Source of the DNA: Eledone cirrhosa | Lineage: Eukaryota | Assembly: GCA_964016885.1 (NCBI GenBank) | Contig: OZ024743.1 | Coordinates: 164,052,001-164,116,000 of the forward strand | Reading direction: 5' to 3' | DNA length: 64,000 nucleotides | Part shown: positions 36,688 through 43,774 of the stretch, one piece after another | Layout of the letters: each line of letters starts with the position of its first letter | Position numbering within the stretch: position 1 is the stretch's first letter | Translations under genes and position numbers: made by a program | Notes under the pieces: model-generated | What the model was told of the DNA's origin: nothing | The model's input: the letters and a program-made list of their open reading frames with translations, nothing else | The model's database searches: none

Positions 36688-37715
36688 ACAACAGTTAGTT
36701 CACCATTACTGAGAACAATTGTTTCACCTTATTTGAATCATCAGCTCCATTTAAATGGGGTTGTACAGAAAAGGAAAAACAACAACTATACAAATACGCA
36801 TGTTCAGAAACAGTCACTTCTTAAAGGAGGGGGGGGGGGTAAACCTGTGAAAGATCGGTGCAAGGGAGAGACTGTGGGTACTCAGAATAATTATAGATTA
36901 TTCATGTTATTCAGTCCAGAATATTATAGATTGTTCATGTTAGTCAATCTAGAGACTTGTAATTACGTAATAGGTGTTTCCAGACGTGTAGACAGCATGA
37001 AAAAAGTTCATTAATTAAATTTAGACAAGTGCTATTATGCAACTTCTCAGGATGTTGATTCTTTCTTCAATGCACAGCCCACAAGATGGATTCCCATTTC
37101 CATATGGCTTAGACTTAGTAATAACTTTCCACTGAATGGAGTAATCCACTCCTGTTTCCTTGGGGGACCATACGTGGCTCGCGAGCTTCGTGCATGATTG
37201 TTTGTCCAAGTATCTGAAGGTCGGCAGATGATTCAGGAAGCATTCTTTAAACCGGACCTCTGCCATACTTACATAGGATTTGACCTCTTGTTGTTGATTT
37301 TGTCGGTTAGAAGTGACCGCAGCTTTGTAAATTACAGCAGGTGTGTTACATTGTTGTTGAAGGGGACAAGCTTCAGGCCTTCAGCAAGAGCATCCTGGTG
37401 GGGTTCTGCTCTTAGAGCTGTTGGTGATATGGGTCTTCATATACTAGCACAGGAGTATCTTAGTTTCACTCTGTGTTAAAGATGGAGTGGTATTTATGAC
37501 CTATGGGGAAGTGTCTATCTAAGAGAGCTAAAAATATTTTACCTACATTAGTTTTAATGTTGAGTGAGAAGGGAGGGGGCACAAATTATTTTGCTATTAG
37601 CACGATTTCTTTACTTATTGTTGTTGGCGTTAATAGGGGAGTAAGCAATTGGTTGTCCCATGGACTGAGTGCTCTACTACTACGGATATAACTCACCAGT
37701 GTTCTACTATTATAT
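36688..37715 (-). mobile_element. Penelope-like element 3' part (GIY-YIG endonuclease remnant plus pLTR)
   Basis: YVGMAEVRFKECFLNH...TKLASHVW..K....YSIQWKVI..SKPY.NG..SCGLCIEE..ELFSCCLH; hammerhead downstream; inverted pLTR piece at ~37650-37715. Confidence 0.8.
36711..36747 (-). ncRNA. Minimal type I hammerhead motif in PLE pLTR
   Basis: GAG-CTGATGA-TTCAAATAAGGT-GAAA-CAATTG-TT-CTC; palindromic CAATTG stem III; weak stem II. Confidence 0.55.
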
Positions 37716-37719
37716 ATGT

Positions 37720-38809
37720 ATATATATTAAATGAGCCATACACATTTTACTTTTCTTAAGACTTTATTTCTGAAGCAATAGTGGTGGAAGCTACCAGACT
37801 TGGTGCATTTCTGGTTATAGGCAGGGCATTTTTTCATGCGCTCCTGTACATGGCGTTTGTGGCCTTGTTTCCCACAGTGGCTACAAAGGGCAGGTGAAGG
37901 TTGAGAGTTGTCGGACCTGTTGACGTATTGGTTCCTTTCCTGGTGTCTGTAGGAGCTGGAGGCGGCTATGGTTGAGGTGATGCCTTGACGTACATCAAGG
38001 CCTCTTAGAGAGTCATACCCTGCCGTGAGTTACCAAGGATGTCTAGGCGGATCTCATCATCCTCCAATCCTCAAATGAGGGTGTCACGGACCATGATGTC
38101 ACTATAGTCAACCGCAGTGTGGCATGAGGCCAATGGGCATTCTACTTTGAAATTGAAGACACCGGCCTGCCCTTGGAGACGGGCAGCGAAGGCCGGTCAT
38201 GCTGGTCCTGGCGCATCTGTTGCAGCTGCACATGAGCAGCCATGACGTATTCTTGGCGAAAGGCCAGGGACTTAATGTTGCGAAGGGCTGTTTGCTCATC
38301 GCTGGTAGCTAAGGCACCGAATTTCTGTATGAGGTCCTTCCTCAATTTTTCGTCACAGCACTCGAGAAGCTGGAAAAACATCCCTACCTGTAAGGCTCAT
38401 AGCACGTTTGTAGTCCAACCATCTCTGCTCAAAATAGGTTCACTCTTCACTCGTTCCAGCCACAGAGATGTCAGGGTGTCATACCTTCTTGGGTGTAGCT
38501 GCTCGTGTAGTGGGTGGCGGTGCAATTGTGCTGTGAGTGGTGAAACTGTGAAGGCCGATGAGGCGAATCAGCAGCTCCATAGGAATGTTGGTGGACCATG
38601 TTGTGCCGCAGTCAGGTGCAGGGCAAGGTATGTTGCTCATGTTGCTTTGCAGGAAGTTGAATGTACTTTTTTTGTCATATATGAGTCTTGAACACTCTTC
38701 GCTTTTCTCATGACTTTATTTCTGAAGCAATAACAAAAGAAGTTCTTAGCGCGTCTGTGACCATGAGTAAGTAATTTGCAAAGTGACAAAAGCGCTTTGA
38801 CATCTAACA
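37720..38809 (-). mobile_element. Internally deleted LTR retrotransposon (LTR, gag remnant, partial 3' LTR)
   Basis: Putative LTR 38809-38640 (TGTTAG...GCAACA, internal AATAAA); gag-like QLLECCDEKLRKDL, VRDTLI.GLEDDEIR, CSHCGKQGH; repeat GACTTTATTTCTGAAGCAATA at 37760 and 38712. Confidence 0.65.
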
Positions 38810-39057
38810 AAGAAGAGTTCCACGATAAAGGGCAAACCTGTACGAGTCTTATCGCCCCCCCCCCCCTTCTCTCTCCCTCTATATATATATATATATATAT
38901 ATAAAATTTTGTGTATGTGTTGGTTGTTTACCGACACCTTAGTATGCAGGTTGGAGCACTCAACGAAGTGCGCAGGTTGGTTTGTTTACTCCAGAGTAAT
39001 GTAAAAATAAGAAGGGTATGTCAACAGGGTAAAATTGGCTTCATTTATTCACATTCG

Positions 39058-39114
39058 CCTCTATATATATTTCAGTGATAGCCATTATTTAACAGCTATG
39101 ACCTCATCAGGCTG
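39058..39114 (-). ncRNA. Minimal type I hammerhead motif (antisense arm)
   Basis: CAGC-CTGATGA-GGTCATAGC..GCTATCACT-GAAA-TATATA-TA-GAGG; palindromic stem III; stem I imperfect. Confidence 0.55.
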
Positions 39115-39206
39115 TAAGAATTTAAACAGAAAAAACAGGAGCTGGGCATATCAATGAATTAACACAGTAAAATCCATTACATCATGTTTTTCTGTTTAAA
39201 TTCTTA

Positions 39207-39263
39207 CTGCCTGATGAGGTCATAGCTGTTGAATAATGGCTATCATTGAAACATATATAGCAG
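39207..39263 (+). ncRNA. Minimal type I hammerhead motif (sense arm)
   Basis: CTGC-CTGATGA-GGTCATAGC..GCTATCATT-GAAA-CATATA-TA-GCAG; stem I CTGC/GCAG; AATAAA downstream. Confidence 0.6.
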
Positions 39264-39835
39264 CAAATGTGAATAAACGAAGCCAATTTTACCCTGTTGA
39301 CTTACACTTCTTATTTATATATATATATATATATATCATCATCATCATCAGGTTTAGCGTCCGTGTTCCACGCTTGCATGGGTTTGGACGGGGGTTTTCC
39401 CACTTGAGGCAAGAGTAGTTGTCTTGCTCGCATAGGACTGTCTGGCGGGTTTTCTACAGTTGGATGCCCTTCCTAACACCAACCACATTTACAGTGTGGG
39501 GCTGGGAGGTTTTTACTGTGTTGCCTACACGGCCACATTACAGCGTGGACTGTCTGGCGGGTTTTCTACAGCTGGATGCCCTTCCTAACACCAACCACAT
39601 TTACAGTGTGGGGCTGGGAGGTTTTTACCGTGTTGCCTACACGGCCACATTTACAGCGTGGACTGTGTGTTTTTTTGTCGTGACACCTACACGATCTCAT
39701 TTGTTTCGGCCTGGATGTTGTGGGACCAACATAACTTTACATTGAAAGGGGCGGTGTGGATGGGGTGGAGGTGGTGGGACGGGGGTGTGTTTTGATAGAG
39801 ATGCCTACTGACTGTAGTAAGTTTTTACTTTGTAT

Positions 39836-41410
39836 TTAGGTAAGGTGGGTCTTCTCTATTACTGAGTACTGCCAAAGGTCTCGGTCCAGTGACATTGTCT
39901 TGGAGAGGTGTAAGCGTGTGAGGTCGGAATTTATCATCTCGTCCCATGTTTTTCTGGGTCTGCCTATTCCGTGGCTACCGTCTATCTTTATTGCCCTGCA
40001 CTTTGTTATACAGCTGTCGTCTTTCATGCGCATCACGTGACCGTACCAACGTAGCCTTCTCTCGAGTAAACAACATCTGATCCCTCTTATTTCTAATTTT
40101 TTCCTTAGTTCGTTTATGCTTTGCCGTTCACGTATATTACTATTGCACATCCAGCAGAGCATGCAAGCTTTGTTCCTCTCTAGTCTGCGTATATCCTCTG
40201 CACACAATGCCCAGGTCTCACTGCCATGCAGCATTGCTGTTCGTATGCAGGCATCGTATAACCTGCCTTTCATTTTTTGGGAGAACCCTCTAGCGGCTAA
40301 TAGTGGTATAAGCTCTCTGAACTTTTTCCATCCAGTTCTGACTCTAGCTACTGTACTTTCAGAGCACCCTCCCCCATTGCTGATTTTGTCACCCAGGTAA
40401 CGGAAGCTGTCCACTATTTCTATAGCACCCTCTGCGCAGTTGAAGGAGCTAGTATTTTGTGGGCACTTGCTGCTACTTATTGCACCAGAGCACCGGCCAC
40501 ATGTAAAATCTATGTTCTTAGTTAGCTTACCTGTGATCCCACTACATCTTTTATGCACCCATACTTTACATTTGGGACATAAAATGGAGTTTCTACCTAC
40601 GCCTTTCCTACACACTGAGCATGGCCATTTCCCAGATGGGACTGCCGCCTTATTTTCTTTCCTACAAACTAGAACTTTAGTCTTAGACGGGTTAATTTTA
40701 AGGCCTTTTGATTCTAGGCCGTGCTTCCATGTTTGGAATTTCTTCTCTAGTTCGGTCATTGATTCAGCTATGAGCATTAGATCATCTGCGTATAGGAGTT
40801 CCCATGGGCAGCCGGTCTTGAACTCCTCTGTTATAGCCTGAAGGGCAATAATAAATAGTAGGGGGCTAAGAACAGAGCCCTGATGGACACCAACTTTTAC
40901 GCTAAACTCTTCACTATATTCGTTGTTAATTCTAACCTTACTGACTGTTTCTTTATACATGGCTTGTATAGCTCTCACAAGCCATTCGTCAACACCTAGT
41001 TTTCTAAGAGACCACCAGATAATGGAACGGGGGACTCTGTCGAAGGCTTTCTCCAAGTCGACGAAAGCTAAGTATAGGGGTTTACTTTTAGCTAGGTACT
41101 TCTCCTGTAGTTGTCGTACAATGAAAAGAGCGTCTGTGGTACTTTTGCCTGACACAAACCCGAACTGCATTTCATCTAGATCAATTCTCTCTCTGATTAG
41201 TTGCGCTATTACTTTTTCCGTGACCTTCATGACCTGGTCGACTAATTTAATGCCTCTATAGTTACTCCTATCTAGGGCATCTCCTTTTCCCTTATAGCAG
41301 TTAACGATGATGCTGCTACGCCAGTCCTTCGGAACAACCCCATTCTGTACGACTTGGTTAACTATGCGGGTGACCATGGTGTGTCCCACCGAACCAGATG
41401 CCTTCAGCAA
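39836..41410 (-). CDS. RTE reverse transcriptase, C-terminal half, with inserted PHD-like finger
   Basis: NYRGIKL, QFGF, AFVDLEKAFDRVP, GVHQGSVLSPLLF, LLYADD, FRYLG, RLRWYGHV, GRPRKTW. Confidence 0.93.
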   Translation of the reverse strand: MLKASGSVGHTMVTRIVNQVVQNGVVPKDWRSSIIVNCYKGKGDALDRSNYRGIKLVDQVMKVTEKVIAQLIRERIDLDEMQFGFVSGKSTTDALFIVRQLQEKYLAKSKPLYLAFVDLEKAFDRVPRSIIWWSLRKLGVDEWLVRAIQAMYKETVSKVRINNEYSEEFSVKVGVHQGSVLSPLLFIIALQAITEEFKTGCPWELLYADDLMLIAESMTELEKKFQTWKHGLESKGLKINPSKTKVLVCRKENKAAVPSGKWPCSVCRKGVGRNSILCPKCKVWVHKRCSGITGKLTKNIDFTCGRCSGAISSSKCPQNTSSFNCAEGAIEIVDSFRYLGDKISNGGGCSESTVARVRTGWKKFRELIPLLAARGFSQKMKGRLYDACIRTAMLHGSETWALCAEDIRRLERNKACMLCWMCNSNIRERQSINELRKKLEIRGIRCCLLERRLRWYGHVMRMKDDSCITKCRAIKIDGSHGIGRPRKTWDEMINSDLTRLHLSKTMSLDRDLWQYSVIEKTHLT

Positions 41411-42932
41411 CTATTTCCGAAGGACCAGCCGCCTTACCCGTCTTCATATCTTTGATTGCCTTGCTTATTGTACTACCCTGGACTAACACTGCTGGTCCCT
41501 CTATTGGGTCGATGTGGGGGAGACTGTCTTTCTCCCATTTGTTCTCATTTAGAAGCCTTTCGTAGTGACACTTCCAAGCTACCTTCTTATCAGCGTCGGT
41601 GATGGCAAGTATGCCATCATCGTTAAGTACACACTTCTCCCCGACAATATCATGGTTTTCCTTGACACATTGCCTGGCAATCCTGAACACCTCACGTTTT
41701 TGGTCCTCACGTTGTAGAACATGCTTGAACTTTCTTTCCTCTGCTTCCCTTCTTGCGAAGTACACTTGTCTCCTAGCTTCCCTCCTGGCCACTTGATAGT
41801 CTTCTCTACTTCCCCCATCCCGCCATGCTTTCCAAGCCTGCTTTTTGGCCTTAATTGACTCCTCCACCTTACTGTTCCACCACCATGTTACTCTCCTCCT
41901 ACCTACAGGCCTGCTCCAGCCACAGACTTCGTCTGCCGCCGTCAGCAGGTTTGCTCTCAGGAATTCCCATTGTTCCTCTATATTATACGACTCTAATTGC
42001 TCTTCCTTACTGTCGAAAGCGTCAAGTAATATGCTTTGAAATTTATTTCTGGCTATGGGGTCCTTTAGCTTCCATATTTTTCTCCTGAGGATAGTCCTCT
42101 TCCGCTGTCTAGTACGTCTCGTCCTGACTATGAGGTCGCTAATTATCAGTCTATGTTGGGAGGTGAATTCTTCATGGGGGAGGGATTTAGTGTTAACAAC
42201 AGACACTCTGTCACGTCTTCTGGTAAGGATATAATCTACCTGGCTTGTGTGCTCCCCCAATCTATAGGTGATCAAGTGATTGTCTCGTTTTTTGAAGTTA
42301 GTGTTACAGATAGTTAAGTTATTTGCGTCGCAGAATTCCAGGATTCTGGAGCCTTCCTCATTTCTAGTACCGAACCCATAGCCTCCATGGATTCCGTCAT
42401 AGCCGTCACAATGTTGTCCAACGTGACCATTTAGGTCGCCTGCAATAACTATATAGTCACTGTCGGTTATTTGGGAGGTAGCGAGCATCACTGTCTCGTA
42501 GAATCTGTCTTTTATAGCGCCGGGCAGTCCGGATTGGGGTGCGTACGCAGATATTACTGTCACCGTAGTTTTATTGAGGACAAGTCTTATTTTAATTATT
42601 CTGTCGTTCACTCTATTTACGTCTATTATCTTATCTGCCCACTTTTCTGCTACCATGATTCCTACCCCACCCAACCCATTGTCATTTCCCACCCAGAAAA
42701 GCTTATAGCATCGTTCTTTACCCACGATGAATCTAGCCGACCCTCCCCTCCACCTGGTCTCTTGAATACAACAAACATCGACCTCCTTACGTTCAAGCAT
42801 TTCTACAACCTCGTTAGAGCGACCCTTTAAGGTGCCTACATTCATGGTACCAACTCTGAAGTTTTGGATTGCGTTTGGAGGGTGGGAGCGGGGGGGGGGG
42901 GGGGTTATGTTAGCCATCCTGGGCCGAAACAA
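41358..42932 (-). CDS. RTE APE endonuclease plus linker (N-terminal half of the same ORF, split by a frameshift)
   Basis: MNVGTL, CIQETRW, SAYAPQ, GDLNGHVG, QVDYIL, SQHRLI, WWW, KAAGPS. Confidence 0.93.
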   Translation of the reverse strand: MFRPRMANITPPPPRSHPPNAIQNFRVGTMNVGTLKGRSNEVVEMLERKEVDVCCIQETRWRGGSARFIVGKERCYKLFWVGNDNGLGGVGIMVAEKWADKIIDVNRVNDRIIKIRLVLNKTTVTVISAYAPQSGLPGAIKDRFYETVMLATSQITDSDYIVIAGDLNGHVGQHCDGYDGIHGGYGFGTRNEEGSRILEFCDANNLTICNTNFKKRDNHLITYRLGEHTSQVDYILTRRRDRVSVVNTKSLPHEEFTSQHRLIISDLIVRTRRTRQRKRTILRRKIWKLKDPIARNKFQSILLDAFDSKEEQLESYNIEEQWEFLRANLLTAADEVCGWSRPVGRRRVTWWWNSKVEESIKAKKQAWKAWRDGGSREDYQVARREARRQVYFARREAEERKFKHVLQREDQKREVFRIARQCVKENHDIVGEKCVLNDDGILAITDADKKVAWKCHYERLLNENKWEKDSLPHIDPIEGPAVLVQGSTISKAIKDMKTGKAAGPSEIVAEGIWFGGTHHGHPHS

Positions 42933-43774
42933 GGAGGAGTGCTTGCATTCTCGTCCACGAGGTGAATTTGGCTTTATATATATAGGACTGTGGCCCTGTC
43001 ATTAACCCATTTTTTCTGTGGTACAAAACTTTGTTTTAAAATGTTTATATTTTTGTAAAAACCTTTCATGATGATTTCATTTAATGTCATGAAAACACCT
43101 GTGAAAGCTATATGATGTGGTAAGAGCTAGTTAAACTTACATAGGTGTAAACTTTAACATAAAATTAATAATCTTGTAAAGTGAAAGTATTAACAAATAC
43201 AATATTGTAGAATATTGTAGAATGTCTGTCCAGTATCAATGACATGGCTCTCTAAGGCCCTCTAAGGTATGTAAGACAAGCAAGTAATAAATTATGTAAG
43301 TAGCAAACATTACTACAATGAGTATAGTATGTAGTGCTTGGTATCAGTTACACAATGTGGTTGATGTAGTGGTAAAAGATTCCATAGATATATAATTGAT
43401 AGGTGGAGTAGAGTGAGAGAGAGGAGTAATTAATAGATAGTGGAATATGGAGAGGATTGGAAGAAAGAGTGAAGGAGGAAGATATGGCATGAGTTAGTGA
43501 TAAAGTAAGAGAGAAGTGGAATGAAGAAAGATATGTGTAAAATAGAAAGATTACTTGATAAAATAGAAATATATAGAAAGCAAGGTGTGAGAAATGATGA
43601 GAAGAGGTTGAGAGATATTTTGACTGAGAAATTAAAAAGACAAGGAAATATATACATGAATATCTGTATGTATTGCCTCTTTCTGTTAATTTCAAGTTTA
43701 TTTTTGACTGGCTGCCTTCCTGGCAGCAAGGTTATAAAGAAAAGCAAATTTTTTATTGTCTCTTGTGTAATCAT

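What the first reader, a model, noticed from the sequence alone, without database searches (positions are those of the whole stretch)
39020..39301. Compact 280-bp fold-back with a hammerhead ribozyme motif on each strand
Seen: two ~117-bp inverted arms with a ~47-bp spacer. Each arm holds CTGATGA-stem II-GAAA-(C/T)ATATA-TA followed by AATAAA, so a transcript of either polarity would be a rod-like hairpin with a hammerhead in its 3' arm. No ORF lies between. Known: Penelope-like elements carry minimal type I hammerheads in their pLTRs and often form inverted partial pLTRs, and minimal hammerheads with palindromic stem III can cleave as dimers. Inference: either a one-off inverted pLTR remnant or a non-autonomous ribozyme-bearing fold-back (retrozyme-like) family. 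Each arm has a different defect (stem I in one, the palindrome in the other).
Basis: partly seen in the sequence, partly recalled or inferred. Interest (0 to 1): 0.72.

Follow-up and report, generated by a model that had tools for sequence, protein, structure and literature searches.

The report
Two-ended Hydra Penelope insertion stub
This hairpin is one decayed, 412-base insertion of the end of a Penelope-type jumping gene, likely made when both cut DNA strands copied the element's RNA and the two copies joined head to head; it is ordinary debris of a published kind, not a self-copying ribozyme family.

Summary
The fold-back and both hammerhead motifs are real, but the unit is larger (38905-39316, between TA runs) and has no true spacer. 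It is two 5'-truncated copies of the 3' end (pLTR) of a Hydra-clade Penelope-like element, head to head, overlapping by a 5-nt microhomology. One copy runs on into RT and GIY-YIG coding sequence, and a sister subfamily has an intact 894-aa ORF with all Hydra motifs. The window's junction occurs once in 3.0 Gb; other fold-backs have other junctions, so this is not a fold-back family. Copies end at two fixed sites 94 nt apart, and two-armed insertions pair one of each (31 of 31 classifiable in one sample, 19 of 20 in an overlapping one), which favours priming from both target strands. The hammerhead covaries across subfamilies, but both window copies carry private lesions and would be trapped in the hairpin (82-84 kcal/mol penalty). 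Copy ends do not pile up at the cut site. Opposite-strand hammerhead pairs and inverted pLTRs with a one-sided tail are in print, and this scan has reported the same pattern on other DNA, this genome included.

The parts
38880..38903 (.). (TA)n run, left flank; the family's usual target. A target-site duplication cannot be told inside it.
   Evidence: TA runs beside most copy ends
38905..39140 (-). Long-ended (L) arm: pLTR from -29 to +206 (C3 of the hammerhead = +1)
   Evidence: 90% identical to L029 over 243 columns and 77% to the 5' pLTR of L140
38905..38998 (-). 94-nt tail (+113 to +206), present on this arm only; in a tandem copy of the sister subfamily it runs straight into the sequence before the ORF start
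39058..39114 (-). Type I hammerhead motif, intact core and TATATA palindrome, stem I broken by three private changes (found in 1, 2 and 1 of about 100 arms); predicted cut after 39062
39136..39140 (.). 5-nt microhomology CAGGA shared by the inner ends of both arms; junction unique in the genome
39136..39316 (+).
   Evidence: 85% identical over 206 columns to the 3' end of the RT/EN-bearing copy L031
39207..39263 (+). Type I hammerhead motif, stems I and II intact, palindrome broken by a private T-to-C change (1 of 104 arms); predicted cut after 39259
39317..39336 (.). (AT)n run, right flank, followed by the (CAT)n end of a neighbouring LINE

Best explanation
This is a single, decayed insertion of two 5'-truncated 3' ends of a Hydra-clade Penelope-like retrotransposon, head to head in a TA run, likely made by twin priming: the endonuclease would cut both strands of the TA run, each strand would prime reverse transcription on element RNA at one of two fixed start sites, and the two short cDNAs would join at a 5-nt microhomology. 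Shown: family identity, link to RT and GIY-YIG coding sequence, two fixed 3' ends, one-of-each pairing, unique junction, microhomology, private lesions in both hammerheads. Inferred: the order of cutting and priming, and whether one RNA or two served as template. The hammerheads are passengers of the pLTR; in this copy they are predicted to be inactive.
For: Family: 2946 first-look candidates, 40 scored; 92 exact matches of a hammerhead 23-mer at 86 places. L031 carries the same end (85-92%) behind decayed RT and GIY-YIG frames (Pfam PF01541 E 0.0012, below its curated cut-off). Sister subfamily: 894-aa ORF with RWK, DKT, CxCX5C, CxxC, CxH, YRDD, the motifs given for Hydra in PMC8557442 section 11. 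End pairing: of 83 loci picked by a motif 3' of the ribozyme, 39 have an adjoining inverted arm; 31 could be classed and all 31 pair one S with one L end (independent pairing could give at most one half). In the hammerhead-picked set (77 family loci, overlapping the first), 34 are two-armed, 20 could be classed, 19 are S+L and 1 is S+S. Reading the table: in 14 of the 31 the L arm is tail only and does not overlap the S arm; in 24 of 31, the window among them, the S arm reaches further 5' than the L arm (3 by under 10 nt), which a simple snap-back of one target-attached cDNA cannot give. In vitro, the Anolis PLE protein cuts and extends both strands and starts at two sites that bound the tail (PMC11167929, passages). 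Junction unique. The two arms share four subfamily variants and differ only by rarer changes.
Against: One S+S insertion exists (L049); 8 of 39 and 14 of 34 two-armed loci could not be classed. 44 of 83 loci show no adjoining inverted arm. Junction microhomology is not universal: of 33 junctions measured, 9 have inserted bases and 6 are blunt. Three pairs of unrelated loci share a junction (L145/L155, L198/L199, L085/L086), so some composites may move as units or recur. The window arms are no closer to each other than many other arms are (44 of 94 and 22 of 97 as close or closer) and share no rare variant, so a single RNA template is not shown. Clade placement rests on motifs, not on a tree.
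Confidence: 0.75

Rival explanations
1. Same element, other route: one cDNA (or an antisense RNA) starts at the L site, folds back on itself at the microhomology and copies itself; the endonuclease then trims one arm at the S site during integration. This joins the self-priming idea of PMC3846280 with the 'EN-mediated resolution' that PMC8557442 suggests for the tail.
For: It also gives head-to-head arms, one tail and microhomology. 6 of 31 classed insertions fit a plain snap-back (table). L022 has the window's junction position with S and L swapped.
Against: 24 of 31, the window included, need the extra step of removing the tail from the first strand (table). The two start sites and both-strand extension were seen in vitro for another PLE (PMC11167929). 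No palindrome lies at the window's junction.
Confidence: 0.17
2. The unit is a member of a non-autonomous fold-back or retrozyme-like family that replicates as a rod-like, self-cleaving RNA.
For: 16 of 74 hammerhead-picked loci carry the motif on both strands within 700 bp. Three other junction types recur at two loci each. The motif is conserved with compensatory changes.
Against: The junction is unique; the 16 differ in their junctions; hammerheads are on opposite strands, not in tandem; both are damaged by private changes; forcing the hammerhead fold costs 82.3 and 84.2 kcal/mol and core bases C3-A9 are predicted fully paired.
Confidence: 0.04
3. Two independent insertions landed next to each other, or a later inverted duplication made the palindrome.
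For: TA runs attract many insertions; unrelated hammerhead families lie near several copies. The arms differ by 9.5%.
Against: No target DNA lies between the arms, they overlap by 5 nt; strict S+L pairing is not expected; neither arm is contained in the other.
Confidence: 0.04

Closest known systems
Hydra clade of EN+ Penelope-like elements (PMC8557442, section 11 read; Hydra-1_Obim, 2507 bp, (TA)n, listed in its File S1)
   Same: RWK, DKT, CxCX5C linker, CxxC and CxH, C-terminal GIY-YIG without CCHH, hammerhead in the pLTR, (TA)n targets.
   Different: Unit about 4.1 kb against 'generally short (<3 kb)'; tail 94 nt against the 30-40 bp the paper gives for PLEs. Not compared by sequence with Hydra-1_Obim.
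Inverted pLTR with a one-sided tail in EN+ PLEs (PMC8557442 Fig. 2 legend and section 6 passages; Pen2a_Av in PMC3846280, passages)
   Same: An inverted 5'-truncated copy directly at the 5' end, tail at one end only.
   Different: Here both copies are cut down to the pLTR; those papers invoke self-priming or EN resolution, while the counts here favour priming from both strands.
Minimal type I hammerheads of metazoan PLEs (PMC4209133, parts 1-2 of 4 read)
   Same: Long stem II, 4-5 bp stem I, small palindromic stem III; the paper reports dual motifs about 100-700 bp apart on opposite strands in Schistosoma.
   Different: 6-nt palindrome; near-invariant C.C mismatch at stem II position 4 (87 of 93); first pair of stem II is often G-U, with G-C second.
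Metazoan non-LTR retrozymes (bioRxiv 10.64898/2026.07.22.740005, part 1 of 5 read)
   Same: Short, non-coding, PLE-derived, type I hammerhead.
   Different: Retrozymes are head-to-tail tandems with at least two same-strand hammerheads; this is head-to-head with a unique junction.
LINE-1 twin priming (recalled, no call)
   Same: Inverted 5' part joined to the 3' part through microhomology; the 14 tail-only cases look just like it.
   Different: Second priming site is fixed, and the two cDNAs often overlap, giving a palindrome.

Membership tests
Hydra-clade PLE | Single ORF, RT then C-terminal GIY-YIG | tested here: met
   L031 (decayed) and L125/P0002 (intact 894 aa, sister subfamily). Pfam gave no RT hit; RT read from motifs.
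Hydra-clade PLE | RWK, DKT, CxCX5C, CxxC and CxH; no GxKF/Y; no CCHH | tested here: met
   P0002 positions 39, 122, 754, 852, 880; GxKF/Y absent; one Cys in the GIY-YIG core. L031 has RWR, DKT and a decayed linker.
Hydra-clade PLE | Hammerhead in pLTR; (TA)n target | tested here: met
Hydra-clade PLE | Generally shorter than 3 kb | tested here: not met
   L140 hammerheads 3438 and 7573, unit about 4.1 kb; the paper says 'generally', so not decisive
Hydra-clade PLE | RT tree placement with reference Hydra proteins | not tested
   No reference proteins were fetched
EN+ PLE inverted-pLTR insertion | Inverted 5'-truncated copy adjoining, tail on one end | tested here: met
EN+ PLE inverted-pLTR insertion | Target-site duplication | tested here: inconclusive
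   Both flanks are TA runs
Type I hammerhead ribozyme | Core plus stems I-III with covariation | tested here: met
   Family level: 93 distinct strings, stem I pairs 1-4 91-96% paired, stem II 80-98% except the C.C; compensatory changes among subfamilies. The search fixed the core, so core conservation was not measured. No Rfam match.
Type I hammerhead ribozyme | Intact fold in the window's own copies | tested here: not met
   Private lesions and sequestration; stem III duplex -2.4 against -5.2 kcal/mol for the plus arm
Type I hammerhead ribozyme | Self-cleavage | not testable with these tools
   Bench assay; copy ends show no pile-up at the site
Non-LTR retrozyme | Head-to-tail tandem with two same-strand hammerheads | tested here: not met
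Fold-back or MITE-like family | Many copies with the same arms and junction | tested here: not met
   1 match genome-wide

The most novel reading that the evidence does not exclude
The strict pairing of a short and a long end, with fixed start sites 94 nt apart and arms that are often not nested, records how Penelope-like elements integrate: an RT dimer primes both target strands at two sites of one pLTR RNA, displacing its own first cDNA, and the most common template is a transcript starting about 120 nt before the hammerhead, so solo and inverted pLTRs are routine by-products of the 5' end of full-length RNA. The young sister subfamily with an intact ORF makes this directly testable.
Probability: 0.45. 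Interest if true: 0.5.

Novelty: new member of a known kind. Interest (0 to 1): 0.2.

Why it matters
The locus itself matters little: it is dead repeat DNA. As one of many such insertions it bears on an open point named in PMC8557442, how PLEs form inverted ends and one-sided tails. The counts favour priming on both strands over self-priming, and the genome holds young copies with an intact ORF for an in vitro test. It also warns that hairpins with a hammerhead on each strand in such genomes are not viroid-like or retrozyme-like units.

Tried and rejected
Rfam: no hammerhead family in the window (E up to 5, best 150 of 160 rows shown) or in 38900-39420 (E up to 10); only hairpin look-alikes below their gathering scores. 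Monomer folding of each arm's hammerhead is not better than shuffles (z 0.10 to -1.72). Cut-site signature: 0 of 52 inner ends at +48 to +52 (1.4 expected) and 6 of 52 at +50 to +62 (3.6 expected, p 0.15), so no sign that cleaved RNA is the usual template. Single-RNA test: window arms share no rare variant; over 17 two-armed loci rare shared variants are in excess (23 against about 4) but 10 come from one divergent locus and subfamily origin explains them as well. My first label, Neptune clade (notebook), was dropped after the motif check. DNA-transposon (MITE) reading rejected: arms of unequal length, no shared junction. Pfam does not see the RT. Paper searches: penelope/hammerhead/pLTR/inverted/octopus and Penelope-like/twin priming/inverted/retrotransposon (2 papers listed, neither read, neither about PLEs by title); subscription papers are not covered, so twin priming of PLEs may be in print elsewhere. 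bioRxiv supplements were not seen.

Full report
Observation. The inverted repeat is real: arms 38999-39134 and 39187-39322, 136 nt, 91% complementary. The 16-mer that starts the hammerhead core occurs once on each strand and nowhere else in the window. Rfam has no hammerhead match here.

Extent. A search of the own genome (3.0 Gb, 1796 contigs) with 38995-39325 gave 2946 candidates, 40 scored: many single arms, some fold-backs. Against real copies used as rulers (L031, L029), with C3 of the hammerhead as +1, the insertion is an inverted arm from +206 to -29 (38905-39140) and a forward arm from -86 to about +110 (39136-39316), overlapping by CAGGA, between two TA runs.

Parent element. L031 carries the same end (85% and 92% to the two arms) behind about 1 kb of non-coding DNA, a GIY-YIG frame (PF01541, E 0.0012, below the curated cut-off) and broken RT frames. 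Its RT piece finds 32,426 candidates, 150 scored. Of 20 such loci fetched, several belong to a young sister subfamily with 99-100% identical repeats and an intact 894-aa ORF; in L140 two hammerheads lie 4135 bp apart and the tail runs straight into the region before the ORF start. The protein has RWK, DKT, CxCX5C, CxxC, CxH and no GxKF/Y, the marks of the Hydra clade in PMC8557442 (section 11), whose File S1 lists a (TA)n-targeting Hydra-1_Obim. No tree was built. The window's own subfamily is older: arms differ from the majority base by a median 7.3% (104 arms).

Family or one-off. The junction 23-mer has one match in the genome at up to 2 mismatches, the window. An exact hammerhead 23-mer has 92 matches at 86 places: 77 of this family, 9 of a second family. 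After dropping 3 segmental duplicates, 16 of 74 have the motif on both strands within 700 bp, each with its own junction. So double-hammerhead fold-backs are a common outcome, not a lineage. Against this, three other junction types recur at two unrelated loci each; one has a 7-nt microhomology, and two join to the common -121 end.

Two ends, one of each. Copies end at about +112 (S) or +206 (L). In a second sample picked by a motif 3' of the ribozyme (85 matches, 83 loci), 39 have an adjoining inverted arm; 31 could be classed, 26 L+S and 5 S+L, none S+S or L+L; 8 could not. In the first, overlapping sample 34 of 77 were two-armed, 20 classed, 19 mixed, 1 S+S (checked). From the table, 14 of the 31 have a tail-only L arm, and in 24 the S arm reaches further 5' than the L arm, as in the window, where each arm holds sequence the other lacks. 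A plain snap-back cannot give that. The Anolis PLE protein cuts and extends both strands and starts at two sites bounding the tail (PMC11167929, passages). I infer twin priming with joining of the two cDNA ends, often but not always at microhomology (18 of 33 measured junctions overlap by 1 nt or more, 6 blunt, 9 with inserted bases). A snap-back followed by endonuclease trimming, closer to PMC3846280 and PMC8557442 (passages), is not excluded.

Inner ends. 34 of 98 inner ends between -300 and +85 fall at -127 to -105 (5.8 expected), likely a transcript start or a microhomology with TA (inference). None of 52 falls at the cut site, in line with the report that uncleaved RNA is the main substrate in vitro (PMC11167929).

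The ribozyme. Among 93 distinct motif strings from the loci held, stem I pairs 1-4 are 91-96% paired and stem II 80-98%, apart from a C.C mismatch in 87; several positions change on both sides between subfamilies. The search fixed the core, and related copies count many times. This matches the minimal PLE hammerheads of PMC4209133, which also reports pairs 100-700 bp apart on opposite strands, no cleavage for a single motif and low cleavage for dimers (parts 1-2 read). In the window the damaging changes are private (1-2 of about 100 arms), while the arms share four subfamily variants: decay after insertion. In a transcript of the whole unit the core is predicted fully paired, and forcing the hammerhead costs 82-84 kcal/mol; the antisense arm is made first.

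Verdict. A real but ordinary feature: a new member of a known kind. The anatomy is published; the one-of-each count and the non-nesting argument add modest support for twin priming, which my two paper searches did not find stated for PLEs, but which earlier notes of this scan reached on other DNA and in this genome (unchecked AI notes, not counted as support). Interest 0.2.

Noticed in passing
L125:3913-6594, L129, L140: Young sister subfamily, 99-100% identical repeats, intact 894-aa Hydra-type ORF with a long low-complexity stretch between RT and EN; kilobase-scale inverted insertions of the same layout.
   Followed up: partly
L044, L047, L055, L058, L069, L070, L093, L098, L099; L025, L070, L111; L007, L137: At least three further families share only the hammerhead, the TA target and short motifs of the tail; the first has a fixed 5' end about 70 nt before C3.
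   Followed up: partly
all subfamilies, stem II position 4: C.C mismatch kept in 87 of 93 motif strings while neighbouring pairs covary; may be a tertiary or protein contact.
   Followed up: no
L145/L155, L198/L199, L085/L086; L022: Same arm junction at two unrelated places, three times; L022 has the window's junction position with the S and L ends swapped.
   Followed up: partly
window 39337-42998 (-): Nearly intact LINE with endonuclease and RT frames (39836-41410, 41358-42998) and a (CAT)n end abutting the right TA run; RTE type by recalled resemblance.
   Followed up: no
window 37727-38715 (-): Broken gag-like frames with a Cys-His knuckle, and a 41-nt direct repeat 952 bp apart; label recalled, not tested.
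   Followed up: no
window 37021-37380 (-): Another GIY-YIG-like remnant of PLE type, 119 aa.
   Followed up: no
L059: The segment around the S end is expanded into a tandem array over at least 1.2 kb.
   Followed up: no
L065, L094, L191 and others: The same short repeat appears inserted inside several copies, with duplicated flanks in L094; L095 is interrupted by a different insert.
   Followed up: no
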